43,953 bases of DNA from a virus, in UHGV virus genome UHGV-0199997; one strand, given 5' to 3'. The notes beneath the pieces were generated by a model, which made no database searches, had not been told where the DNA came from, and worked only from the letters and a program-made list of their open reading frames with translations. The position numbers and the translations under genes are program-made. Below are positions 1 to 43,953 of the stretch, piece by piece; position 1 is the first letter of the stretch, and each line of letters begins with the position of its first letter.

Positions 1-417
1 ATGAAACTTTCTGATTTTTATTTCGAAGAGAAAGCACTGGTAGGCAAGAAGATGCCGATTACGCTGCCGAATGGTGAAGACTCAGGAGAGTGGCTTAACG
101 TTGTAAATACGGATGCGGATGCCGCCGTTAAAGCCGGGCGTGCTTTCATTATTGCGTACCGCCGTGGGTTGGCGCGTTTCGAAGAACTGGAAAAAGCCGC
201 CAAAGAAACCGGCGACTATACTGAATATAACCTGGCGGTTAACGAACTGGCGGAAGACCTCAACCGGCAACTCGCGGCAGAAGTCGTAAACGGCTGGAGC
301 TTTGACGAGCCATTCTCTAAGGAAGCGTTTAACAAATTGCTCGATCAGTTCAAAGCATTAGGCACACAGGTAGCGGCGTTTCATAACGCTGAACGTAAAG
401 CATTACAGGAAAAGTAG
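1..417 (+). CDS. tail assembly chaperone (gpG-like)
   Basis: 138-aa ORF directly upstream of the tape measure gene; acidic helical protein; the window end supplies an RBS (AAAGGA 43941-43946) if the sequence is circular. Confidence 0.55.
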   Translation: MKLSDFYFEEKALVGKKMPITLPNGEDSGEWLNVVNTDADAAVKAGRAFIIAYRRGLARFEELEKAAKETGDYTEYNLAVNELAEDLNRQLAAEVVNGWSFDEPFSKEAFNKLLDQFKALGTQVAAFHNAERKALQEK

Positions 418-782
418 ACGCGCTGTACAGGTTCGCCACCTACGAGTTCGTTGATAAGCATAAAATCAGAGAGTTTGATTCTATAGCTGACGGACACGAA
501 CAGGCGCTTATCGCGATGGGTGTAATCGATAAGAAAAAACGTGCAGCGCGACGGGGTGGGCCGGAATGCCCGCCCCTTTTTATATCCACCTTTGAGACGT
601 ATTGCGACATTAAGTTTACGCGACACGTGCGCGAGGACGCTGTAGTATTGTTTGCAAGAGAATCCGTTACGTGGCAAGACCTGAAAGCCTATCTCGATGT
701 TACGCAAAAGCAGCTTAGCCTGTTCGAGATAGACATTATCATGGGCTTAGAAGCAATCTTTGAAGGTAGAAATCATGGCTGA
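399..782 (+). CDS. tail assembly chaperone T-extension (putative G-T fusion via -1 frameshift)
   Basis: -1 frame opens at 399 right after a TAA (396-398), is protein-like through 782 and overlaps the tape measure start; heptamer G GAA AAG at 408-414 resembles the lambda G/GT slip site G GGA AAG. Confidence 0.4.
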   Translation, partial: SITGKVDALYRFATYEFVDKHKIREFDSIADGHEQALIAMGVIDKKKRAARRGGPECPPLFISTFETYCDIKFTRHVREDAVVLFARESVTWQDLKAYLDVTQKQLSLFEIDIIMGLEAIFEGRNHG

Positions 783-3048
783 TACCGCTAGTTTGATAGT
801 ACGAGTATCATCGACCGGCGTCGATAAAACCACATCACAACTGAACGGGCTTACTAAGGCGGCGGGGGCCGCAGCAGCCGCCGTTGTCAGTCTGGAAACC
901 GCTAAGCAGGTGTTCAGCGCGCTGGTGGACTCTCAGCGCAACTTCGACAAGCTAAATTCCGGACTCATCACGATGACCGGGAGCGCGGAGAACGCGGCTA
1001 AGGCTTTCAGCGTCCTGCAACAATTCGCAAAAGAAACCCCATACGGGCTTAACCAGGCGGTGGAAGGCTTTACTAAACTTGTGGCCCTGGGCCTGAACCC
1101 CAGCAAAGAAGCGTTAATCTCCTATGGCAACACCGCCGCGGCTATGGGTAAAGACCTTAATCAAATGATTGAGGCTGTGGCGGACGCCAGTACCTTTGAG
1201 TTTGAGCGCCTAAAAGAGTTCGGCATCAAGTCCTCCCAACAGGCAGATACAGTGTCGTTCACGTTCCGCGGCGTAACGACTACTGTTAAAAAGAACTCCG
1301 AAGAGATTCAGAAATACCTTCTGAACATCGGCAACACGGATTTCGCCGGGGCGATGGAGACGCGCTCTAAGACGTTAGACGGCCAGTTATCGAGCCTCGC
1401 TGACTCTTTCGACGGCCTTGTTCTTGCGGTAGCGCAATCCGGTTTTGGCGACGCGGTAGGTGAACAAGCAGCAACAGCGGAAGATGCCATCACGGCGCTC
1501 ACCGACGCCATTGCGTCTAATGAGATAGCAGCCACGCTGCAGGATTGGGTGACACTGTTCAATGAGTCGTTCAAGTTTATCTCCGACGCCTTGAACGACC
1601 TGGCATTTGACACCGAGGACAAATCCGCGGATATGTCCGACTCGCTGGGTACCATACCTGACGCTATCCGTGAGTGGTTGCCCGACATCCAGCAGACATT
1701 CCACGAGGTTATCGCGTGGTTCCAGCGCATTGACGATTATGCCGTAGCGCTAGGGCAGACCCTTGCCGACGTGTTTGACCCGAGCAAAACGGCAGCGCTC
1801 ACATTTAAAAACCTGACTGCAGAAGCCGACGCCGCATACGCCGCCAGCATAAAACGCGCAGAGGCAGAATCACAGGCCATTACCAACAGGTCTAAGCAGC
1901 GTAAGAAAGAAATTGAGGAGCAACGCAAGCAGTATAATGAGCGCAAGAAGCAAGAGATTGACTTAGCCAGCCTTGTTAATAACAAGGGTGGAACTGGTGG
2001 GGCGGGAAACACCAACGACAAAGACGCGAAAGCTGCCGCTAAGAAAGCGGAGCAATTACGTAAACAGGCGCAGGATTACCTCGACACTTTGGCTCGTCAG
2101 AACAACGACGAGTTAAAGGCTATTGACGCTCAGGAACAGCAGAAACTGGCTAAGGCAAAAGAGTTCTACGGCCAGGGCGCGTTGTCTCTGAAAGAATACG
2201 AACAAGCTAAAACGGCTATCGTCCTTGAAGCAGGGCAAAAACGGCAAGATGAACTGGATAAACGCCAGAAAGAAGCCCAGGAAAAGCAGCAGAAAGGCGA
2301 CGACTTCATGGCCCAGATTATGGGCCAGAACGCCACTGAGCTTGAGCTTCTCGATATCCAGGAACAGCAGAAACTGGCTGTCGCCGATAAATACCGCGAA
2401 CAGGGGCTGATTAAAGAGGAACAGTATCAGGCGGCACTTAACGCTATCAATGAGCAGTATGCTACGAAGCGCGCCGACGCAACGGCAACCGCCTTTGGTA
2501 ACATGGCCTCAAATATCGGGTCTGCGTTGGGCGAGGCCTCTGGTGCGTATAAGGCATTCGCTATCGTACAGGCCACTATCGCCACGTACACCGCAGCTAT
2601 TGAGGCGTACAAGTCAACGGCTGCTATCCCTGTAGTTGGCCCGTTCCTGGCCCCTGTAGCCGCTGCCGCTGCCGTTGGGGCAGGTATGGCGCAGATTTCA
2701 GCTATCAGATCCGCACGTGAACAGGGTGGTCAGTTGTCCGCGGGGCAGGCTTCCACCATCACGGAACGCGATAAACCTGAGGTTATCATGCCGGCGGGTG
2801 CATCGCGTGTGCGCACCGCGCAGCAGATGAAAGAAATTATGGGGCAAAACGGGTCTTCTTCCGGCCCGTCTAATGTTACTATCGTAAACAACACGAGTTC
2901 TCAAATCGGCAAAGTATCCACCGAACAAGATGATGAAGGCCGTTTGCGAATCATCATTGAAGAACAGGTTGCCGCGTCTTTGCAGAACAGCAACAGTAAG
3001 ATTAGCAAGGCCCGCAAGGCCACAAGAAATGCGCCGGGGTTCAAATAA
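775..3048 (+). CDS. tail tape measure protein
   Basis: Roughly 760-aa helical protein rich in A/Q/K/E repeats with a hydrophobic Gly/Ala segment near the C-terminus, in the expected position after the chaperone; ATG 775 follows RBS GAAGG (762-766). The ORF track opens at TTG 760. Confidence 0.85.
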   Translation: MADTASLIVRVSSTGVDKTTSQLNGLTKAAGAAAAAVVSLETAKQVFSALVDSQRNFDKLNSGLITMTGSAENAAKAFSVLQQFAKETPYGLNQAVEGFTKLVALGLNPSKEALISYGNTAAAMGKDLNQMIEAVADASTFEFERLKEFGIKSSQQADTVSFTFRGVTTTVKKNSEEIQKYLLNIGNTDFAGAMETRSKTLDGQLSSLADSFDGLVLAVAQSGFGDAVGEQAATAEDAITALTDAIASNEIAATLQDWVTLFNESFKFISDALNDLAFDTEDKSADMSDSLGTIPDAIREWLPDIQQTFHEVIAWFQRIDDYAVALGQTLADVFDPSKTAALTFKNLTAEADAAYAASIKRAEAESQAITNRSKQRKKEIEEQRKQYNERKKQEIDLASLVNNKGGTGGAGNTNDKDAKAAAKKAEQLRKQAQDYLDTLARQNNDELKAIDAQEQQKLAKAKEFYGQGALSLKEYEQAKTAIVLEAGQKRQDELDKRQKEAQEKQQKGDDFMAQIMGQNATELELLDIQEQQKLAVADKYREQGLIKEEQYQAALNAINEQYATKRADATATAFGNMASNIGSALGEASGAYKAFAIVQATIATYTAAIEAYKSTAAIPVVGPFLAPVAAAAAVGAGMAQISAIRSAREQGGQLSAGQASTITERDKPEVIMPAGASRVRTAQQMKEIMGQNGSSSGPSNVTIVNNTSSQIGKVSTEQDDEGRLRIIIEEQVAASLQNSNSKISKARKATRNAPGFK

Positions 3049-9653: not shown

Positions 9654-11074
9654 TTCTTACCTCGTCTCTTCATGTAGTTAAGCAACTCTTCCTGCACCGA
9701 TTTCTTCTCATCAGTACGCGCGGCAACAACCTCGTCAAGAGTGTCTTTGGCAACGATATGATAGAGGAACACCGGGCGCTCGTGGCCTGCCTGTTTCTGG
9801 CGGACTGGGCCTATGCGCTCGACAACCTGCAAATAGTGCTCAAGGTTCCACCCTGGCGAAATAAACGCCAGATGATGCCCGCCGTCCTGTAAATTGAGGC
9901 CGTGGCCCGCCGACGCAGGATGCACGCATAAGATTTCGATTTCGCCGCGGTTCCACGCTTCCATCTGCTTATTACCCTTAGCGCCTTTGGCGAACGCCTG
10001 CGCCTGCGGGAATCGTTTAAGGATGCGCTCCAGTTCATGCTTGAACTGATAGGCGACTAGCAACGGTGCACCCTGCAACTCTTCCACAATGGACTCCAGT
10101 GCGTCCAGTTTCGTGTCGTGCACTTTCTCCCAGTCTTTCGTTGCTTCGCCGTCCGGCCCTGACACATACACGGCACCGGATGCAATCTGAAGGCACTTAG
10201 ATGTCTTCGCCGCCGCGTTAGCCGCTTCAACTTCCCCGCTCTCCAGCTCCGCGAATAGCTTCTCCTCCATATCGATGTACGCCTGACGTGCTTTCTTCGG
10301 CAGGTCGATTTCAACCGGTACGATAATCGGCGCTTCACATCCGAACCACTCGGCGGCGTCAATCGTGAGACTAATGTCCTTCATCTTCTGGTGAATCTCG
10401 GTATCCGCCCCCGGGCGGGCATGGTACTCGCGTGCCATCGCCGACTTACCTTTCTGTACCGAGTTAAACCAGCGGTCTGTGAATGCCGTGTATGAAGACC
10501 CCAAGCGCTCTCCTGCGTCGATAAACCAGTTCTGGCCCCACAAGTCCTTGAGGCCGTTCGGTGATGGTGTGCCAGTCAGGTTGATAAAACGCTTAACCTT
10601 ACCGAAAGCAACCTTGCTAAGAGCCTTTGCGCGCTTGCTTCCACCTGAACGGCTGCGGAACGATTTAAGCTTCGTGCTTTCATCGGCAACGATAACCGTA
10701 AAAGGCCAGTCGTCTTTGCCGTAGTAGTCAATCAGCCACTCGATAACTTCGTAGTTTGTGCACACCACGTTAGCGTCTGACTCCAGTGCCGCGATGCGAC
10801 GCCTCTCGCTACCTGTTGCATCTACGACACTCAGGCATGGAAATCGCCATTTCTCTTGTTCTGCGGGCCATGTGCCGGATGCGACGCGCAACGGAGCGAG
10901 GATTAACACGCGGTCGTCGTCCGTAAGCTGCCCGTTGCGGAACAGTCTGTTTAACGTCCACAGTACGCTGCCAGTCTTCCCGGCACCCATGCTTGCCCAT
11001 ATGTTGCAGCGATGGTGCCGCAACATGAACGAGGTAATGAGCTTCTGGTACTCGCGCCTTTGAAACTTACTCAT
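9650..11074 (-). CDS. SNF2/DEAD-like superfamily II helicase
   Basis: Walker A in ASMGAGKTGS, DEAH-type box in IVADESTKLK, C-terminal helicase motifs. Confidence 0.85.
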   Translation of the reverse strand: MSKFQRREYQKLITSFMLRHHRCNIWASMGAGKTGSVLWTLNRLFRNGQLTDDDRVLILAPLRVASGTWPAEQEKWRFPCLSVVDATGSERRRIAALESDANVVCTNYEVIEWLIDYYGKDDWPFTVIVADESTKLKSFRSRSGGSKRAKALSKVAFGKVKRFINLTGTPSPNGLKDLWGQNWFIDAGERLGSSYTAFTDRWFNSVQKGKSAMAREYHARPGADTEIHQKMKDISLTIDAAEWFGCEAPIIVPVEIDLPKKARQAYIDMEEKLFAELESGEVEAANAAAKTSKCLQIASGAVYVSGPDGEATKDWEKVHDTKLDALESIVEELQGAPLLVAYQFKHELERILKRFPQAQAFAKGAKGNKQMEAWNRGEIEILCVHPASAGHGLNLQDGGHHLAFISPGWNLEHYLQVVERIGPVRQKQAGHERPVFLYHIVAKDTLDEVVAARTDEKKSVQEELLNYMKRRGKK

Positions 11075-11903
11075 TTACAGCCCCCATGAACGCCTTTATA
11101 AATTCAGCGGCTACTTGCGGGACGATGGCATTGCCGTAACCGCGCAATCGTCCCACTCTGGCGGGTATCCCATTAGCCAGCGGGAATGTGCCGGGTTCAA
11201 CTGGCCGGAACTTTCCATCCCTGCATCCGAGCCAGTCAGCATCCGACCAGAAGCTGCGATTCGGATTGCCCCCACGAGGTAGCATTGATTGTGCAGATTG
11301 TTCGGGTCTCTTTTTGTTTCCGCCTCGCTGTAGCTGCCGTGACGCGAATTCTGAACCGTCGGCGTCCCCCATGCCGCTTTCAGTCCCTGCTCTGTTGAGT
11401 AGTCCAGCCTGTCGAATGTTCTGTCCTTCCCGTCCTTGCGAATCACTGTCTCTCCGCTCCCTTTGTGATCGTTCGCTGTCGGTGTCGGCCAGTTGGTACG
11501 CACCAAAGAAGAGTCGTTCTCTTTTATGCGGAGCGCCGACGCTACAAGCTGGGAGTACGGCAAACCCGACGGCGTAGTCTTCTCCTTCCAGGTGAGTTTG
11601 TAAATCGCACATCCACGATTTTGCAATTGCTGGCGCAACCTGTTCCCCAAAGAGGACTGGAGGGTGGCACTCGCTGATGAGGTCGAGGAAGACTGGCGCG
11701 AGGTGTCTCGGGTCGAACTGTCCGAGTTGTTTTCCTGCCGCGCTAAACGGTTGGCAAGGCGGGCTTCCCGTCCAGAGAGGCGTATCTTCCGAAACTCCCG
11801 CAAGTCTGAGCGCGAGAGGCCAGCCGCCGATGCCAGCGAAAAAAATGACACTGGGTGAACCCGTCAAGGTCTTCTGGCTTAACTTCGGTAATGCTTCTTT
11901 CAT
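11067..11903 (-). CDS. DNA (cytosine-5)-methyltransferase, frame-disrupted
   Basis: This frame carries motif I (FFAGIGGW), motif IV (PPCQPFSAAGK), ENV-like (FGEQV), motif VIII (PHKRERLFF) and motif X (GYGNAIVPQV); the target-recognition region and motif IX lie in an overlapping frame (11111-11851) and the N-terminus in a third frame (11743-11991). Confidence 0.65.
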   Translation of the reverse strand: MKEALPKLSQKTLTGSPSVIFFAGIGGWPLALRLAGVSEDTPLWTGSPPCQPFSAAGKQLGQFDPRHLAPVFLDLISECHPPVLFGEQVAPAIAKSWMCDLQTHLEGEDYAVGFAVLPACSVGAPHKRERLFFGAYQLADTDSERSQRERRDSDSQGREGQNIRQAGLLNRAGTESGMGDADGSEFASRQLQRGGNKKRPEQSAQSMLPRGGNPNRSFWSDADWLGCRDGKFRPVEPGTFPLANGIPARVGRLRGYGNAIVPQVAAEFIKAFMGAVNE

Positions 11904-11991
11904 CTACAACTCCAAAAGGTATGTGACCCTGTTTTATTAATTCACGCAGCCACGCGGCTGCACCTTTATCCCATTCATTGTAATAGTTCAT
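11743..11991 (-). CDS. N-terminal segment of the methyltransferase in an alternate frame
   Basis: ATG 11991 overlaps the TGA of the upstream 63-aa gene (ATGA); reads ...KPEDLDGFTQCHFF and would continue into AGIGGW if the A7 run at 11839-11845 were one base shorter. Confidence 0.4.
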   Translation of the reverse strand: MNYYNEWDKGAAAWLRELIKQGHIPFGVVDERSITEVKPEDLDGFTQCHFFRWHRRLASRAQTCGSFGRYASLDGKPALPTV

Positions 11992-12179
11992 TTGGCCACC
12001 AGAACTAACTCTTTACGCCCGAACGCCGTAACGTTACCTGTTACGTCTTCGATAACCAGTTTGCCGTTCGACTCTACGAACACTGTATCAACGGCAACAG
12101 GACGACGGGTCTTAACGTTGAAAATCATGTCGCCCGGTACGATGTCACGTGCTGGTTTGCGGTCATATTCGTGTTTCAT
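11988..12179 (-). CDS. hypothetical protein (63 aa)
   Basis: ORF with RBS AAGGAATTGAG before the ATG; lies upstream of and is coupled to the methyltransferase N-terminal frame. Confidence 0.5.
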   Translation of the reverse strand: MKHEYDRKPARDIVPGDMIFNVKTRRPVAVDTVFVESNGKLVIEDVTGNVTAFGRKELVLVAK

Positions 12180-12209
12180 TTCTCAATTCCTTATATTGTT
12201 GGTGTAGGA

Positions 12210-12494
12210 CTAACTATAGTAGTTCGCTATTAGGTCGTCAACCTGTTTGAACGAACCAACGACAAAAACATTTGCACCACGTTTGCGCATCCGCTCGTGC
12301 TCTCGTAACTGGTGCGGGTCAGGCTTCGTGCTTTCGTCTTTCTTAACCTCGACGAACCAGATGATGCCGCCGGGGAGAATTACCAGCAGGTCAGGAGCGC
12401 CGGAGCGCCCCTCGTAGGAAAGTTTACGAACGAGGCCACCAATGGCCTCGAATCGCTCTTTTGCGTATTTCTGTATTTTTCCTTCCGGGGTCAC
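12210..12494 (-). CDS. VRR-NUC domain nuclease
   Basis: 94-aa protein with the PD-(D/E)xK-like pattern GAPDLLVIL...FVEVKK...Q typical of VRR-NUC. Confidence 0.65.
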   Translation of the reverse strand: MTPEGKIQKYAKERFEAIGGLVRKLSYEGRSGAPDLLVILPGGIIWFVEVKKDESTKPDPHQLREHERMRKRGANVFVVGSFKQVDDLIANYYS

Positions 12495-12685
12495 AGCAAA
12501 GGCTCCGCATCCGGGTTACGCAGGAAGTACGCTTGATAGATGTCGTGTTCTGAATAGTAAACGCCTTTGTGCGTACACCCGGCACAAACGTCACTAAAGA
12601 ACCCATCACCCATTACCATGATAAATTCCCATTCTGGCATATCCACCAACGCAGCTAGTTTCTTACTAAATGGTTTGTTGCTCAT
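12491..12685 (-). CDS. hypothetical protein
   Basis: ORF track 12491-12694 opens at GTG; the internal ATG at 12685 is preceded by RBS AGAGGGG. Confidence 0.45.
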   Translation of the reverse strand: MSNKPFSKKLAALVDMPEWEFIMVMGDGFFSDVCAGCTHKGVYYSEHDIYQAYFLRNPDAEPLL

Positions 12686-12767
12686 AATACGCACCCCTCT
12701 CGTTTTGTATGCTCAATACCACAGCGCGGACAGATTCGGCAGTCTTCTTCATAAAACCAGTAAATTT

Positions 12768-12899
12768 TCATTCCAGCACCCACAGATAAATTGCGATGAA
12801 CATGCCCAGTACGGCGACAATCATGCCGTATTGGCCCTCGTGACAGTAGACACCGGCGGCAAATCCCGCCAGTACCGCGATAATCAGTTTACTTAGCAT
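12768..12899 (-). CDS. small hydrophobic membrane peptide (43 aa), not in the ORF track
   Basis: MLSKLIIAVLAGFAAGVYCHEGQYGMIVAVLGMFIAIYLWVLE; the start overlaps the 3' end of the DNA polymerase gene. Confidence 0.3.
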   Translation of the reverse strand: MLSKLIIAVLAGFAAGVYCHEGQYGMIVAVLGMFIAIYLWVLE

Positions 12900-15072
12900 A
12901 GCGCTTCATCTCCGCACCTTCCGCCACAAGAGGGAACCCCTCTGCCCACTCCGGTAATTCGCACATCAACCGCTCAAGCTCTGCAACATTGTATTCCGGT
13001 AAATCTGGCGTCTCGCAGATAATCTCATCGTGAACATGAAGTACAATCGGGTAGCCGTTTGCCTCTACGTTCAGCAGCGCATTAGCCAGCAAATCACGGC
13101 ACAGCGCCTGCGTGCAGTTTTCCACCAGTTTACCGGAGTAGGTGTACTGAAAGCCCCACTGACGGGTTAGCTGATTTTCACCCTGATACTTGATGCGGAC
13201 GTTAGTAGACACTTTTCCATCTTCGTCTGTCTCTTTCGACACGCTTAACCCAACACCCGGATAAGACATAACACGACCCGACGGCAGCGTCATACGCAAC
13301 CACCAACCGGCGACTTTGTTGCCGTTGTTGTCTGTCTCCACGTTACGCGAAAACTTAACTCCCCGCGGCCCTGCGGTGAACTCTTTACCTGGATTGCGAA
13401 TAGCTGCCATAGCCGCATCTTCAATATCTCGCCAGAAAGCTACGGTTTCCGGGTGGGACTCACGCCACATGCGTTTGATAGCGTCACAGGTACGCCACAC
13501 TTTCTTATCAAGAATATATGATGGTCGGTCATCTTTTTCACCTGGCCGCGGAGGCCGCTTGGCTTCCTGAATACGCGCCCACTCATATCCACGCGCGGTA
13601 GCGGCCCAGATGTGGTCGGGGAAAGTACCGTCCATTGTTTTAGCCATATCAACAAGGTCAAGGCCGAGGTTCTTAGCAAACTGAACGAAAGCACCTACAC
13701 CGCCTGCGTAGCCGAGGCCCAATTCGCAGGCTTTACCAATCTGCCGTAAGTCTTTACGTTCTTTCTTAATGTAATCCGGCTCCATGCCAAACATCTTACC
13801 TGCGGTTACGCAGTAAATATCCAGCCCAGCACGGAACGTATCTAACGCGGTTTCTTCCCCCGCCAGCCACGCGAGACCGCGGCCTTCAACGTTAGAGTAA
13901 TCGGCAACGACAAACTTATGCCCGGCTTCCGGGATAATGCAGCTACGAACCGTCGATGCCGTCAGCTTGGCTACATCGAAACGGCGGTGCGCGCGGCCCT
14001 TAAGTAACGCTGAAATGCCTTTATCCAGTTCATCATCATCATGGTAATACCCGCGCGCCAGGTTCTGCGGCTGGAAGCCTTTACCCGCAAACCGTAACGT
14101 ACGCTTTGCCCCACCGTACTGGATGCAACCGCGGCGTCGGTCGTCAGAAGAGCGGCCTAACAGCAGCGGGTTATATTTCGTTGACGCCGTGGACGCGGCC
14201 CCGAGGCGCATTTCGATAATCGTGCGGGCGTCGTCCGGTAAATCATCATCCGCCAGCAGGTCATTCAGCGTCGACTTCTGCGCATTGTGGATGCGGTGCG
14301 CGGGTGCGAGTTCACGCAGAATCGGAAGGAAGTCTTTACCGGTAAGCGAGCCGCCGTATTTGCGCTGTGCTTCTTCCTGTAACTGCGCTTTATGTTTCTC
14401 CACGGCTTCAATCGCGGCTTCCGCCAGCGCGACGTCAACCTTAAACCCTCGGTCATTGATTAACTGGTCCAGTTCCAGTACGCGGTCCTCGAACTCAGAG
14501 TTACCCCACCGCGGTAGCTTATGGAAAACTTCACGCATCGCAGTGATGTCGCTCACGGCGTACTTGATGAATAGCGCCCACTCGTCCGGGTGTGTTTCGG
14601 CGGTGTAACGGCGGATTTTGTAGTTCTTCGGCGTAGGTTTAGAAAAACGCTGAATCAGTGCCTTGCCGCGTTTATCTTTCGCGTTGTCCGCGGATACGCC
14701 CAGCACTTCGCACAGCGCATCGAGAGAACCCGGCAGCGCGTGACGAAACGCCCAAATCATCGTATCAATGGTGTTGCTTACCGGAATATCAAAGCCCCAG
14801 CAGTGCTTCATGATGAGCCTATCGAAAAGTCCACCGTTGTGCCACACCATCTTAATTCGGCTGTTTGGCTTCACCAGACGGCGTAACACGCGGTGCAAAT
14901 CCCCCGGCATGTCGCTGCCGTCCGTGCAATCCCACACCTGCACAGGCTCGTCATCGAAAGCATAGGTACAGATTAACACTTCGGTTGACGGGTGTTCGGC
15001 GTAAGCGTAGGAACCGACTTTCTTTAAATCGGCTTCGGAGAATGTTTCAAAGTCTAAGAACAGGTAACTCAT
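12889..15072 (-). CDS. DNA polymerase, family A (Pol I / T7-like) with 3'-5' exonuclease domain
   Basis: 727 aa; Exo I motif in LFLDFETFS at the N-terminus and a Pol A-type polymerase domain. Confidence 0.9.
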   Translation of the reverse strand: MSYLFLDFETFSEADLKKVGSYAYAEHPSTEVLICTYAFDDEPVQVWDCTDGSDMPGDLHRVLRRLVKPNSRIKMVWHNGGLFDRLIMKHCWGFDIPVSNTIDTMIWAFRHALPGSLDALCEVLGVSADNAKDKRGKALIQRFSKPTPKNYKIRRYTAETHPDEWALFIKYAVSDITAMREVFHKLPRWGNSEFEDRVLELDQLINDRGFKVDVALAEAAIEAVEKHKAQLQEEAQRKYGGSLTGKDFLPILRELAPAHRIHNAQKSTLNDLLADDDLPDDARTIIEMRLGAASTASTKYNPLLLGRSSDDRRRGCIQYGGAKRTLRFAGKGFQPQNLARGYYHDDDELDKGISALLKGRAHRRFDVAKLTASTVRSCIIPEAGHKFVVADYSNVEGRGLAWLAGEETALDTFRAGLDIYCVTAGKMFGMEPDYIKKERKDLRQIGKACELGLGYAGGVGAFVQFAKNLGLDLVDMAKTMDGTFPDHIWAATARGYEWARIQEAKRPPRPGEKDDRPSYILDKKVWRTCDAIKRMWRESHPETVAFWRDIEDAAMAAIRNPGKEFTAGPRGVKFSRNVETDNNGNKVAGWWLRMTLPSGRVMSYPGVGLSVSKETDEDGKVSTNVRIKYQGENQLTRQWGFQYTYSGKLVENCTQALCRDLLANALLNVEANGYPIVLHVHDEIICETPDLPEYNVAELERLMCELPEWAEGFPLVAEGAEMKRYAK

Positions 15073-38407: not shown

Positions 38408-39022
38408 ATGGCGAAGACTAAAACAGAGATGTTTACCCTTATCGGTGCAAATCTTCCCGATAACACTACCGGTCTTATCACCCCAGCCGCATTGCGCGAG
38501 GTAATGACGCAGATGGCCGACTCGCCTATTTACGCCACTCCTGGGGTGAAAGAGGTCGAAGTTCTCCGTGCCGCGTCGACCGTAACACAAGCGCCTACCG
38601 CGGTAGATACGGCGTTGCAGTTAACTTTTGGTTCCGCTCAGGGTAGCGCATCTGACCCGGTAATGATTAATGCCGCCGGGCTGGTTACATTCAACACCGC
38701 GGGTAACTACGCCGTTCGCATCAAGTTACAAGCTGGGCGCACTGGGGCAAGCGGCACGTCTATCCTGTTATCGCGTATTCTTCTGAACGGCGCTCAGTAC
38801 GGCTCGCCAGCAGCTACTAAACTGGTAAACGCTGATATTACAATCCCGATTGAGTCTCGCGTCGTTATTAACCCGACCGCAGGTCAGACGTTTGCCGTTC
38901 AGATTATGCGGGACAGCGCCGGGAGTGACTTCGGCGGAGTATACCCACAAGCAGCTACTGTAACCTCATGGGGTACTGCGCCATCTGCGCTACTGGTTAT
39001 TTCGAGACTGGAGGCCGCCTGA
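38408..39022 (+). CDS. hypothetical structural protein
   Basis: 204-aa ORF, tightly packed in the structural operon. Confidence 0.45.
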   Translation: MAKTKTEMFTLIGANLPDNTTGLITPAALREVMTQMADSPIYATPGVKEVEVLRAASTVTQAPTAVDTALQLTFGSAQGSASDPVMINAAGLVTFNTAGNYAVRIKLQAGRTGASGTSILLSRILLNGAQYGSPAATKLVNADITIPIESRVVINPTAGQTFAVQIMRDSAGSDFGGVYPQAATVTSWGTAPSALLVISRLEAA

Positions 39023-39381
39023 TGAGCACCGCTTTCAGTAAACGTATGCAAGGCGTTGGCACGCGCCTGCTAACTAAATTCGGTAGCACGGTATCTCTGG
39101 TTCGTGCTGGCTCGAAAGTGTGGGATGAAGTTCTCGGTGAATACGTCTGGTCCGCGGATGAAGTGCTGCCGTTAAAGGCCGTTCCGGTTCCTGTTAACGC
39201 GGGGCTGGTAAATGGTACGACGATTCAGGCGGGCGACATGATTGTTAAAGCCGATTGCAGTGTCGTTCCTAAGATGGAGGACAAGGTGCAATTCGGTGGC
39301 GAGCAATGGTCTGTCGTAGCTATTGAGAAGAAGATGGTTAACGATGATGTCGTGGCATATTTTATTCAGGTGAGAAAATGA
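39022..39381 (+). CDS. putative head-tail joining protein
   Basis: ATG 39022 sharing one base with the upstream TGA; synteny. Confidence 0.45.
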   Translation: MSTAFSKRMQGVGTRLLTKFGSTVSLVRAGSKVWDEVLGEYVWSADEVLPLKAVPVPVNAGLVNGTTIQAGDMIVKADCSVVPKMEDKVQFGGEQWSVVAIEKKMVNDDVVAYFIQVRK

Positions 39382-39776
39382 GTTTCGCGCTTGATGTCTC
39401 TAAGTTCGTGGAAAAGGCGAAGAAGAACCCAGAGAAGGTGATGCGTCAGGTGTCTATCAAGCTGTTTTCCGCTATTATAAAGGCGAGTCCGGTAGATACG
39501 GGTCGCTTTCGTATGAACTGGATGGCGTCTGGCGGCATTCCTGCTTCGGGGATTACAGATGCTACGGATAAATCAGGAAACATAGCAATCGGAAACGCTA
39601 CAGGTTTCGTACTGAAAGCCACAGACTGGCACGAGTTCACGCTGACAAATAACCTACCGTATGCCCAACGGCTGGAGTATGGCCATTGGTCGAAACAGGC
39701 CCCACAAGGCATGGTCAGGATAAATGTGTCCCGCTTCCAGCAACTCATTAACGAAGAAGCCAACAAGGTGAAATGA
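39378..39776 (+). CDS. HK97 gp10-like head-tail joining / tail completion protein
   Basis: PVDTGRFRMNW matches the characteristic DTG(R/N)LRNSW-type motif of the HK97 gp10 family. Confidence 0.6.
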   Translation: MSFALDVSKFVEKAKKNPEKVMRQVSIKLFSAIIKASPVDTGRFRMNWMASGGIPASGITDATDKSGNIAIGNATGFVLKATDWHEFTLTNNLPYAQRLEYGHWSKQAPQGMVRINVSRFQQLINEEANKVK

Positions 39777-43845: not shown

Positions 43846-43953
43846 GTAGTGTGCTAGAATAAGTTTGCGCCTAGTGTCGCACACGAAAAGCGGGTGGTTC
43901 CCGTCTGGCGCATTTATCGTTAACCTGTAACCTCTTAACCAAAGGATTAAAGA

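What the first reader, a model, noticed from the sequence alone, without database searches (positions are those of the whole stretch)
399..782. Candidate programmed -1 frameshift producing a chaperone G-T fusion
The -1 frame relative to the chaperone ORF opens exactly at 399 (after TAA 396-398), reads as protein-like sequence (SITGKVDALYRFATYEFVDKHKIREFDSIADGHEQALIAMGVIDKK...) through 782 and ends with a stop overlapping the tape measure start. The heptamer G GAA AAG (408-414), one codon before the G stop, matches the A-site half of the lambda slip site G GGA AAG. The slip site is non-canonical in the P-site, so efficiency is uncertain.
Basis: partly seen in the sequence, partly recalled or inferred. 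Interest (0 to 1): 0.4.

Follow-up and report, generated by a model that had tools for sequence, protein, structure and literature searches.

The report
Tail chaperone G-T frameshift signal
This is the usual programmed -1 ribosomal frameshift by which a long-tailed phage makes a little of an extended tail-assembly chaperone; sister phages already carry the same annotation, but comparison shows that its signal is an A_AAG slip site next to the stop codon, followed by a conserved long-range RNA helix.

Summary
The window is a Kagunavirus-like (Guernseyvirinae) E. coli siphophage.

- **Layout:** ORF 1-417 is a tail assembly chaperone (G). The -1 frame, open from 399 to 782, encodes a T domain that abuts the tape-measure gene.
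- **Prior annotation:** PHROG 15027 spans both ORFs as one 259-position profile. The predicted junction ...LQEK|VDALY... reproduces exactly the fusion proteins deposited for K1ind1 and K1G. The frameshift is therefore already annotated in the genus.
- **Conservation:** In 75 distinct relatives (down to about 41% T identity) the -1 frame stays open for 120-122 codons. Codon periodicity switches frame exactly at the junction. The 516 ATG is not conserved.
- **Slip site:** What is conserved is A_AAG followed by UAR (74/75), not the heptamer. The preceding codon is GAA, GCA, GGA or UCA.
- **New element:** The synonymously frozen GCGYUG five nucleotides downstream is the 5' arm of a long-range helix (window 419-428 with 541-550). 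It has compensatory changes, and its 3' arm lies at +130 in one clade and +204 in the other. It is probably the frameshift stimulator. This step is inferred, not shown.

The parts
1..417 (+). Gene G: tail assembly chaperone, 138 aa, stop TAG at 415-417
   Evidence: ORF list. PHROG 15027 E=1.8e-69. Pfam PF08748 Phage_TAC_4, 27 bits against a cut-off of 21.1. Homologue annotated as ORF21A in K1ind1.
408..414 (+). Shift site G_GAA_AAG. The conserved core is the tetramer A_AAG (411-414), on which tRNA-Lys re-pairs from AAG to AAA.
   Evidence: A_AAG is present in 75/75 distinct contexts. The preceding codon is GAA in 55, GCA in 18, GGA in 1 and TCA in 1. AAG is used in 31/31 non-redundant sequences and codon -1 always ends in A. 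In L024/L027 the -1 frame opens only 7 nt before the stop, which is exactly the heptamer.
415..417 (+). 0-frame stop codon immediately 3' of the shift site; it also lies in the spacer before the helix
   Evidence: TAG or TAA directly follows A_AAG in 74/75 contexts. In L078 the stop lies one codon later.
419..428 (+). 5' arm of the long-range RNA helix (CGCGCUGUAC), starting 4-5 nt after the shift site
   Evidence: Synonymous sites are frozen: Ala is GCG in 30/30, and Leu is CUG in 28 and UUG in 3. The helix is present in the minimum-energy and centroid folds.
541..550 (+). 3' arm of the long-range helix (GUGCAGCGCG). It closes a 112-nt domain (429-540).
   Evidence: Ten base pairs with 419-428. 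C137, A138, C140, G141 and C142 of alignment A4 are invariant even though the encoded residues vary (A/T/P, A/T, R/Q/L/P). Pair 16-139 is CG in 9 and UA in 8 sequences, with none unpaired. An unbiased scan picks a 20-nt window starting at +127 as the best partner; it contains the 3' arm at +127..+136.
414..782 (+). T segment read in the -1 frame: 122 codons from GTA 414-416, stop TGA at 780-782. Nucleotide 414 is read twice. The -1 frame is open from 399.
   Evidence: Translation. PHROG 15027 positions 137-259, E=1.2e-70. Pfam PF23812 Phage_TAC_18, 67.6 bits. There is no ATG/GTG/TTG in this frame before 516.
775..3048 (+). Tape measure protein gene. Its ATG at 775 overlaps the T stop by 8 nt.
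   Evidence: PHROG 1538 E=1.8e-191. The same start is annotated in K1ind1, Bas74 and fTaEco03.

Best explanation
Genes G (1-417) and T (-1 frame, to 782) form the tail-assembly-chaperone pair of a Kagunavirus-like siphophage.

Most ribosomes terminate at UAG 415-417 and release the 138-aa G protein. A minority slip back one nucleotide on A_AAG (411-414). The single E. coli tRNA-Lys re-pairs from AAG to AAA, and the ribosome then reads GUA (Val) and continues. The product is a 260-aa G-T fusion, ...ALQEK-VDALYRF....

The P-site half of the heptamer is not required. GAA can re-pair approximately on GGA, but relatives with GCA or UCA cannot re-pair. The site therefore behaves as an NNA_AAG tetramer site.

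Such sites are weak on their own. I infer that the shift is boosted by a helix whose 5' arm begins 4-5 nt after the slip site (419-428) and whose 3' arm lies 112 nt further on (541-550). The helix sits at the mRNA entrance when GAA and AAG occupy the P and A sites. The adjacent stop codon may add a pause.

By analogy with lambda gpG/gpGT, G and the G part of GT bind the tape measure, and the T part recruits the major tail protein.

Shown here by comparison: the fusion frame, the position of the shift, and the conservation and covariation of the helix. Inferred: that the helix stimulates shifting, the efficiency of the shift, and the assembly role.
For: **Identity**
- One PHROG profile spans both ORFs, and two Pfam TAC families match.
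- Joined CDSs are annotated in K1ind1, fTaEco03 and Shemara.
- The predicted fusions are exact matches to ADA82368.1/YP_009597303.1 and ADA82267.1/QNO11960.1.

**Frame**
- The -1 frame is open for 120-122 codons in 75 distinct contexts.
- The T-frame protein is conserved from its first codon: V-x-A-L-Y....
- Codon periodicity switches at the stop.
- The window has no start codon in the T frame before 516. That ATG is absent in L029-L034, and L110-L116 have no start for 47-108 codons.

**Site**
- A_AAG is found in 75/75 contexts and UAR follows in 74/75. One relative (L013/L050) has the canonical G_GGA_AAG at the same place.
- In L024/L027 the frame overlap is only 7 nt.
- A_AAG is the most shift-prone tetramer in E. 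coli, reaching 5.6% with a pseudoknot and about background without one (PMC4066793).
- NNA_AAG shifting is known in IS1222, IS3 and Bacillus cdd (PMC5009743).

**Helix**
- It is present in the minimum-energy and centroid folds; z = -2.05.
- RNAalifold finds it without prior guidance.
- Clade A: the core of 7 bp is paired in about 100% of sequences. The covariation score is 0.272 against 0.146 +/- 0.021 for shuffles (0/500) and 0.04-0.10 when the partner is slid.
- Clade B: a 13-bp helix gives 90.7% of cells paired over the 14 pairs counted, against 16-53% when slid.
- Clade B has 19 G.U pairs against 1 A.C mismatch, so the pairing is on the sense RNA strand.
- The best downstream partner lies at the clade-specific site in 31/33 sequences, and also in Tsm2, Shemara, Snoke and Klebsiella phage D1.
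Against: - There is no experimental evidence for the fusion protein or for any shift efficiency in this phage group.
- The P-site codon does not allow canonical re-pairing.
- A helix closing a 112-185-nt loop is an unusual stimulator for bacterial ribosomes and may form only between widely spaced ribosomes.
- The fold z-score is modest: 8 of 200 shuffles fold as well.
- In clade B both arms encode conserved residues, and only one pair shows changes on both sides.
- Two clade-A sequences (L051, L054) have a slightly better alternative partner about 25 nt upstream.
- The sequences are related by descent, so the shuffle statistics overstate independence.
Confidence: 0.8

Rival explanations
1. T is made as a separate protein by independent initiation. 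The start would be either ATG 516 or the CTG/TTG at 423 that gene callers pick in Bas74, TS33 and SeF1.
For: Gene callers annotate a separate ORF in many relatives. CUG or UUG is always present at T codon 4.
Against: - The 34 codons before 516 are conserved as protein, with -1-frame periodicity.
- ATG 516 becomes ATC/ATA in L029-L034. Several relatives have no ATG/GTG/TTG for 47-108 codons.
- No Shine-Dalgarno-like sequence is conserved upstream of either candidate start.
- The restriction to CUG/UUG is explained by base pairing: the first base of that codon covaries with the 3' arm, CG in 9 and UA in 8 sequences.
- This model gives no reason for the invariant A_AAG.
Confidence: 0.05
2. The frameshift is real, but the long-range helix is not its stimulator. 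Shifting would rely on G_GAA_AAG together with the adjacent slowly decoded stop codon (a 'shifty stop'). The helix would serve another purpose, such as mRNA stability, ribosome spacing or control of tape-measure translation, or would be a by-product of descent.
For: The stop directly follows A_AAG in 74/75 contexts. Lambda-type G-T shifting is low level, with a product ratio of about 30:1 (PMC5009743). Covariation in clade B is weak. The fold z-score is only -2.05.
Against: - The 5' arm keeps a fixed 4-5 nt distance from A_AAG, even in L078 where the stop has moved.
- The same arm is conserved while its partner sits at +130 or +204 in different clades.
- Four-fold degenerate sites are invariant in both arms.
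- A_AAG without a stimulator is at about background level in E. coli (PMC4066793).
Confidence: 0.2
3. The frame change comes from RNA polymerase slippage on the A run, or reflects a sequencing error or pseudogene rather than recoding.
For: A short run of A (AAAA, 410-413) lies at the junction.
Against: The run is only four A in the window and three in the GCA_AAG relatives, too short for transcriptional slippage as I understand the known cases. The two-frame layout is identical in 75 independent assemblies and in many isolate genomes.
Confidence: 0.01

Closest known systems
ORF21A/ORF21B of Escherichia phages K1ind1 and K1G (Kagunavirus), and the 'tail assembly chaperone frameshift product' of Salmonella phage Shemara
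   Same: These are the same genes in the same position, about 95% identical in nucleotides. They have the same shift site, GGAAAAG followed by TAG. The junction is the same, because the deposited 260-aa proteins equal my predicted fusions.
   Different: The window's own fusion protein differs by a few residues and is not in the protein collection. The records carry no stated slip site or RNA signal. Many sister records instead annotate two separate ORFs.
Phage lambda gpG/gpGT -1 frameshift at G_GGA_AAG (Levin 1993 and Xu 2004, as summarised in PMC5009743)
   Same: Two overlapping ORFs lie just upstream of the tape-measure gene. The shift is -1, near the end of G, on an AAG lysine codon. The fusion is about twice the size of G. 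One relative (L013/L050) even carries G_GGA_AAG.
   Different: The P-site codon is GAA, GCA or UCA, so the heptamer rule is not met in 74/75 contexts. The stop is immediately adjacent. A conserved downstream helix is present. In K1ind1 the major tail gene is separated from G by four minus-strand genes. G and T belong to different Pfam families from lambda's (my recollection, not tested).
Tetramer-type -1 frameshifting at NNA_AAG: IS3 (C_CA.A_AAG plus pseudoknot), IS1222 (G_CGA_AAG) and Bacillus cdd (A_CGA_AAG)
   Same: The slip involves a single tRNA-Lys moving from AAG to AAA. The preceding codon need only end in A. Shifting depends on a 3' structure placed about 5-6 nt downstream (PMC4066793; PMC5009743).
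   Different: In those cases the stimulator is a local hairpin or pseudoknot. Here the two arms are 112 nt apart (185 nt in the other clade), and the product is a phage assembly chaperone rather than a transposase.
Burkholderia phage KL1 gp18/gp19 (GGGAAAC immediately before the TGA stop)
   Same: It is a tail chaperone pair in a phage that shares tail genes with K1G-type phages, and its shift site abuts the 0-frame stop (PMC3483164).
   Different: It has a canonical X_XXY_YYZ heptamer ending in AAC. An extra gene lies between the pair and the tape measure. Only a local stem-loop was suggested there.
Long-distance frameshift stimulators: barley yellow dwarf virus, and the IS3411-type loop-loop pairing 44-104 nt downstream
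   Same: [quoted passage not shown]
   Different: In those systems a local stem-loop is supplemented by a distal contact. Here the distal pairing itself forms the helix next to the shift site. The host is a bacterium and the genome is a DNA phage.

Membership tests
Phage tail assembly chaperone G/GT frameshift pair (lambda gpG/gpGT type) | Two overlapping ORFs immediately upstream of the tape measure gene, with the second ORF in the -1 frame | tested here: met
   G is at 1-417, T runs in the -1 frame to 782, and the tape measure ATG is at 775.
Phage tail assembly chaperone G/GT frameshift pair (lambda gpG/gpGT type) | The second ORF has no conserved start codon or ribosome-binding site of its own, and is conserved as protein from the overlap onward | tested here: met
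   The window has no ATG/GTG/TTG before 516. Some relatives have none for 47-108 codons. V-x-A-L-Y is conserved from the first codon, and periodicity switches at the stop.
Phage tail assembly chaperone G/GT frameshift pair (lambda gpG/gpGT type) | Canonical X_XXY_YYZ slippery heptamer in the overlap | tested here: not met
   G_GAA_AAG in the window. Only 1 of 75 relatives has G_GGA_AAG, and 19 have GCA or UCA as the P-site codon. The tetramer A_AAG is invariant instead.
Phage tail assembly chaperone G/GT frameshift pair (lambda gpG/gpGT type) | Sequence membership in curated chaperone families | tested here: met
   PF08748 scores 27.0 bits against a cut-off of 21.1. PF23812 scores 67.6 bits against 27. 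PHROG 15027 covers both parts.
Phage tail assembly chaperone G/GT frameshift pair (lambda gpG/gpGT type) | Pair lies directly downstream of the major tail protein gene | tested here: not met
   In K1ind1 the putative tail tube gene (10185-11351) is separated from G (13944) by four minus-strand genes. This is a frequent but not universal feature of the family.
Phage tail assembly chaperone G/GT frameshift pair (lambda gpG/gpGT type) | The fusion protein is made at a few per cent of G, is needed for tail assembly and is absent from virions | not testable with these tools
   This needs proteomics, reporter assays and genetics.
Tetramer (Z_ZZN) -1 frameshift signal with a 3' structural stimulator (IS3 type) | Conserved A_AAG, with the preceding codon ending in A | tested here: met
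   Found in 75/75 contexts. AAG is used in 31/31 sequences although other Lys codons mix AAA and AAG.
Tetramer (Z_ZZN) -1 frameshift signal with a 3' structural stimulator (IS3 type) | RNA structure beginning about 5-8 nt 3' of the motif and supported by covariation | tested here: met
   The helix starts 4-5 nt after G414. Compensatory pairs are seen in clade A, and 90.7% of cells are paired in clade B.
Tetramer (Z_ZZN) -1 frameshift signal with a 3' structural stimulator (IS3 type) | Shifting depends on that structure | not testable with these tools
   This needs reporter assays with disruptive and compensatory arm mutations.

The most novel reading that the evidence does not exclude
The G-T frameshift of Guernseyvirinae is driven by a minimal A_AAG tetramer abutting the stop codon, together with a long-range helix of 10-13 bp. 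The helix's 5' arm is fixed 4-5 nt after the shift site. Its 3' arm has relocated during evolution: about 112 nt away in Kagunavirus, Jerseyvirus and their kin, and about 185 nt away, inside the KF(I/V)QR codons, in the Cornellvirus and Serratia Eta/Tsm2 group.

This would be a distal-pairing frameshift stimulator in a DNA phage tail-chaperone gene. It would explain why some annotators report 'no canonical slippery sequence' for these phages. A GenBank note for phage Snoke cites Anany et al. 2015 for a 'predicted secondary structure here'. I could not read that paper, so part of this may already be in print.
Probability: 0.55. Interest if true: 0.55.

Novelty: already known. Interest (0 to 1): 0.33.

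Why it matters
**For annotation.** The finding settles an inconsistency. In this phage subfamily roughly half of the records call two separate genes, and one paper states that no slippery sequence exists. Comparison shows a single conserved shift site and fixes the fusion protein sequence. The rule 'A_AAG + UAR + GCGYUG' could be used to correct hundreds of Kagunavirus, Jerseyvirus and Cornellvirus records.

**For recoding biology.** The group offers a natural series with one invariant tetramer, four different P-site codons, an adjacent stop and a helix with two alternative distal partners. With simple reporters this series could test three things in E. coli and Salmonella:
- how much the P-site tRNA contributes to -1 shifting;
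- how much a neighbouring stop codon contributes;
- how much a long-range structure contributes.

The frameshift itself is ordinary.

Tried and rejected
- **Local stimulatory hairpin or pseudoknot within 116 nt of the site.** RNAalifold found only 3 invariant pairs (-0.9 kcal/mol), and the single-sequence z-score was -0.08. This search missed the helix because the 3' arm lies just beyond the stretch I gave.
- **Pairing of the 5' arm with upstream sequence.** UACAG at 404-408 can pair with CUGUA at 423-427 in the window, but this is not conserved in relatives (inspection).
- **Conserved Shine-Dalgarno-like element upstream of the shift site.** None is evident.
- **Rfam.** There are only two sub-threshold chance hits, sroC and PhrS.
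- **Solved structures by sequence.** There is no relative; one spurious hit at E=0.0056.
- **Literature.**
  - No paper held in the library describes the Guernseyvirinae shift site.
  - Anany et al. 2015 (PMID 25663216) is not held.
  - The Snoke, Sciku and Schulenberg genome announcements do not discuss the site.
- **Not run.** I ran no structure prediction of the fusion and no large protein-database searches. Exact look-up already showed that the fusion is deposited, so these would not have changed the verdict.

Full report
**What is in the sequence**

Positions 1-417 form an ATG-initiated ORF of 138 codons that ends ...CAG GAA AAG TAG, with the stop at 415-417. One nucleotide back, the -1 frame has TAA at 396-398. 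It is then open from 399 to TGA at 780-782, reading SITGKVDALYRF.... This TGA overlaps the ATG at 775 of a 757-codon ORF. The heptamer G GAA AAG lies at 408-414, and AAG is the last sense codon.

**What the genes are**

The first 3.1 kb is 90-92.5% identical to Kagunavirus phages (K1ind1-3, K1G, fTaEco03, Bas74 and others), and 96 phage records match.
- The 138-aa product matches PHROG 15027 'tail assembly chaperone' at profile positions 1-138 (E=1.8e-69).
- The -1 ORF matches the same profile at positions 137-259 (E=1.2e-70). That family was therefore built from fused proteins.
- Pfam gives Phage_TAC_4 for the first part and Phage_TAC_18 for the second. Both score above the curated cut-offs.
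- The next ORF is the tape measure (PHROG 1538, E=1.8e-191).

**Is it already known?**

- RefSeq K1ind1 carries a joined CDS, 13944..14725 (ORF21B), beside ORF21A. fTaEco03 and the Cornellvirus Shemara carry the same kind of feature, labelled 'frameshift product' in Shemara.
- I built the fusions for K1ind1 and K1G/fTaEco03 by joining the 0 frame through AAG to the -1 frame at GTA. Both 260-aa sequences are exact matches to deposited proteins: ADA82368.1/YP_009597303.1, and ADA82267.1/QNO11960.1/YP_009168804.1.
- The same event with the same junction has thus been annotated in this genus, under ADA-series accessions that I take to date from the original 2010 deposition (my inference from the accession series).
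- The window's own fusion is not in the collection.
- Annotation is inconsistent elsewhere. Bas74, TS33, SeF1, Tsm2 and Snoke list two separate genes. The Shashou genome note says there is 'no canonical slippery sequence' (PMC6776780).

**Comparative test of the frame**

I collected 31 loci with the G protein and 80 with an alignment of T segments.
- Identity falls to about 48% in G and 41% in T. Across 75 distinct sequence contexts the -1 frame is always open for 120-122 codons past the G stop.
- The fused proteins align without disturbance across the junction. The T frame is conserved from its first codons: K-V-x-A-L-Y/C-x-F/Y-A-x-W....
- Mean pairwise nucleotide difference is highest at 0-frame third positions before the stop (0.62 against 0.42 and 0.38). 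It is highest at -1-frame third positions immediately after the stop (0.55 against 0.27 and 0.28).
- The window has no ATG, GTG or TTG in the T frame before 516, and the 18 nt before 516 contain no Shine-Dalgarno motif.
- The 516 Met is Ile in L029-L034.
- Several relatives have no canonical start for 47-108 codons.

**Where the shift happens**

- The last sense codon is AAG, preceded by A, in 75/75 contexts. TAG or TAA follows directly in 74/75. In L078 the stop is one codon later.
- The preceding codon is GAA (55 contexts), GCA (18), GGA (1, giving lambda's G_GGA_AAG) or UCA (1).
- In 31 sequences less than 92% identical, Lys is AAG in 31/31 and Glu is GAA in 20/20, whereas other Lys codons mix AAA and AAG.
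- In L024/L027 the -1 frame opens only 7 nt before the stop, which pins the event to the heptamer.
- tRNA-Ala and tRNA-Ser cannot re-pair in the -1 frame. The conserved element is therefore the tetramer A_AAG, as in IS3, IS1222 and Bacillus cdd (PMC5009743).
- In E. coli, A_AAG is the best tetramer. It reaches 5.6% with a pseudoknot but is near background without a stimulator (PMC4066793).
- Whichever tRNA slips, the protein is the same: ...LQEK-VDALY....

**A conserved RNA helix**

- Just after the site, Ala is GCG in 30/30 sequences and Leu is CUG in 28 and UUG in 3. Other invariant Ala and Leu codons in the same genes use four to six synonymous codons.
- A search for complements showed why. 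GCGYUG pairs with CARCGC at +130 from the Val codon in one clade: Kagunavirus, Jerseyvirus, TS33, Snoke and relatives. It pairs at +204 in the other clade: Serratia Eta and Tsm2, Cornellvirus and many metagenomic phages.
- In the window, 419-428 (CGCGCUGUAC) pairs with 541-550 (GUGCAGCGCG). This is 10 bp including one U.G pair, and it closes a 112-nt domain.
- The helix is in the minimum-energy and centroid folds of 415-560: -44 kcal/mol, z = -2.05, with 8 of 200 shuffles folding as well.

*Clade A* (18 sequences, ungapped alignment):
- RNAalifold finds the helix without guidance.
- Pair 16-139 is C-G in 9 and U-A in 8 sequences, with none unpaired.
- Pair 19-136 is U-A in 6, U.G in 6 and C-G in 4 sequences.
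- The covariation score is 0.272, against 0.146 +/- 0.021 in shuffles (0/500) and 0.04-0.10 when the partner is slid.
- The 3' arm lies where the protein varies (A/T/P, A/T, R/Q/L/P), yet its four-fold degenerate sites are invariant.
- A non-synonymous GCG/ACG change there compensates for the synonymous CUG/UUG change in the 5' arm.

*Clade B* (26 sequences):
- The helix has 13 bp. Over the 14 pairs counted, 90.7% of cells are paired, against 16-53% when slid.
- There is one doubly changed pair, U-A in 15, C-G in 5 and U.G in 3 sequences.
- There are 19 G.U pairs against 1 A.C mismatch, so the pairing is on the sense RNA strand.

*Both clades:*
- Arm duplex energies are -14 to -27 kcal/mol.
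- In an unbiased scan of about 366 downstream positions, the best partner is the clade-specific site in 31/33 sequences.
- Four named phages fetched afterwards obey the rule.

**Mechanism**

With GAA and AAG in the P and A sites, the conserved start of the helix (G420) is at about +12 from the first P-site base. This is where a structure meets the mRNA entrance, by my knowledge of ribosome geometry. The 4-5 nt spacer is in the usual range. I infer a tetramer-type -1 shift that is stimulated by this helix and possibly aided by the adjacent stop. That the helix stimulates shifting is an inference. Its conservation, spacing and covariation are shown. The roles of G and GT follow from lambda (PMC5009743).

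**Rivals**

- Independent initiation or re-initiation at CUG/UUG 423 is disfavoured. It does not explain A_AAG. The codon restriction is explained by pairing. Starts and ribosome-binding sites are not conserved.
- Transcriptional slippage is unlikely on a run of three to four A.
- A 'shifty stop only' mechanism, with the helix serving another role, remains possible at about 0.2.

**Verdict**

The finding is a real and correctly interpreted G-T frameshift, and it is already annotated in sister phages. The added value is the definition of the signal. A GenBank note for Snoke cites Anany et al. 2015 for a 'predicted secondary structure here'. I could not read that paper, so the novelty of the helix is uncertain.

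Noticed in passing
window 38968-39776 (ATGA overlap at 39378-39381): This is the homologue of K1ind1 ORF14A/ORF14B ('tail completion or Neck1 protein'). RefSeq annotates that pair as a second joined (frameshift) CDS. In the window the upstream ORF ends ...GTG AGA AAA TGA and the next ORF starts at the overlapping ATG (39378). It could be an A_AAA shift next to a stop, or ordinary ATGA translational coupling.
   Followed up: partly
L013/L050 (IMGVR_UViG_2974654489_000001), position equivalent to window 408-414: One close relative has G_GGA_AAG, the exact lambda heptamer, through a single A-to-G change (Glu to Gly in G). This shows that the canonical site is reachable by one mutation yet is not the common state.
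   Followed up: yes
L078 (IMGVR_UViG_2162886012_000023), junction region: This is the only exception to the adjacent stop: A AAG TTA TAG. G is one codon longer, while the A_AAG-to-helix spacing is unchanged. It would be a natural test case for the role of the stop codon.
   Followed up: partly
window 474-477 with 497-500, inside the domain closed by the long-range helix: RNAalifold predicts a small inner helix (alignment columns 67-70 with 90-93). One pair shows U-A in 10, U.G in 4 and C-G in 4 sequences. Its significance was not assessed.
   Followed up: no
window 1 and 43940-43953; K1ind1 10185-13944: The window starts exactly at the ATG of G, and an AAGGA Shine-Dalgarno motif sits at 43942-43946. 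The record therefore looks like a circularly permuted whole genome opened at this gene. In K1ind1, G is separated from the putative major tail gene by four minus-strand genes: an ATP-binding protein, polynucleotide kinase, an exonuclease and superinfection immunity.
   Followed up: partly
relatives: Bas74 (L002 1923-2282), TS33 (L035 1423-1782), SeF1 (L036 1522-1881), Snoke (L120 610-969): Gene callers place a separate 'T' gene starting at the CTG/TTG equivalent to window 423, and Tsm2 starts it further downstream still. Annotation of this locus is inconsistent across several hundred Guernseyvirinae records. The Snoke note refers to PMID 25663216 for a predicted secondary structure.
   Followed up: partly
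window 760-777: The tape-measure ORF is open from TTG 760, but relatives annotate ATG 775, which has AAGG 8 nt upstream. The T stop, TGA 780-782, lies inside the first three tape-measure codons. This suggests coupled translation of T or GT termination with tape-measure initiation.
   Followed up: no
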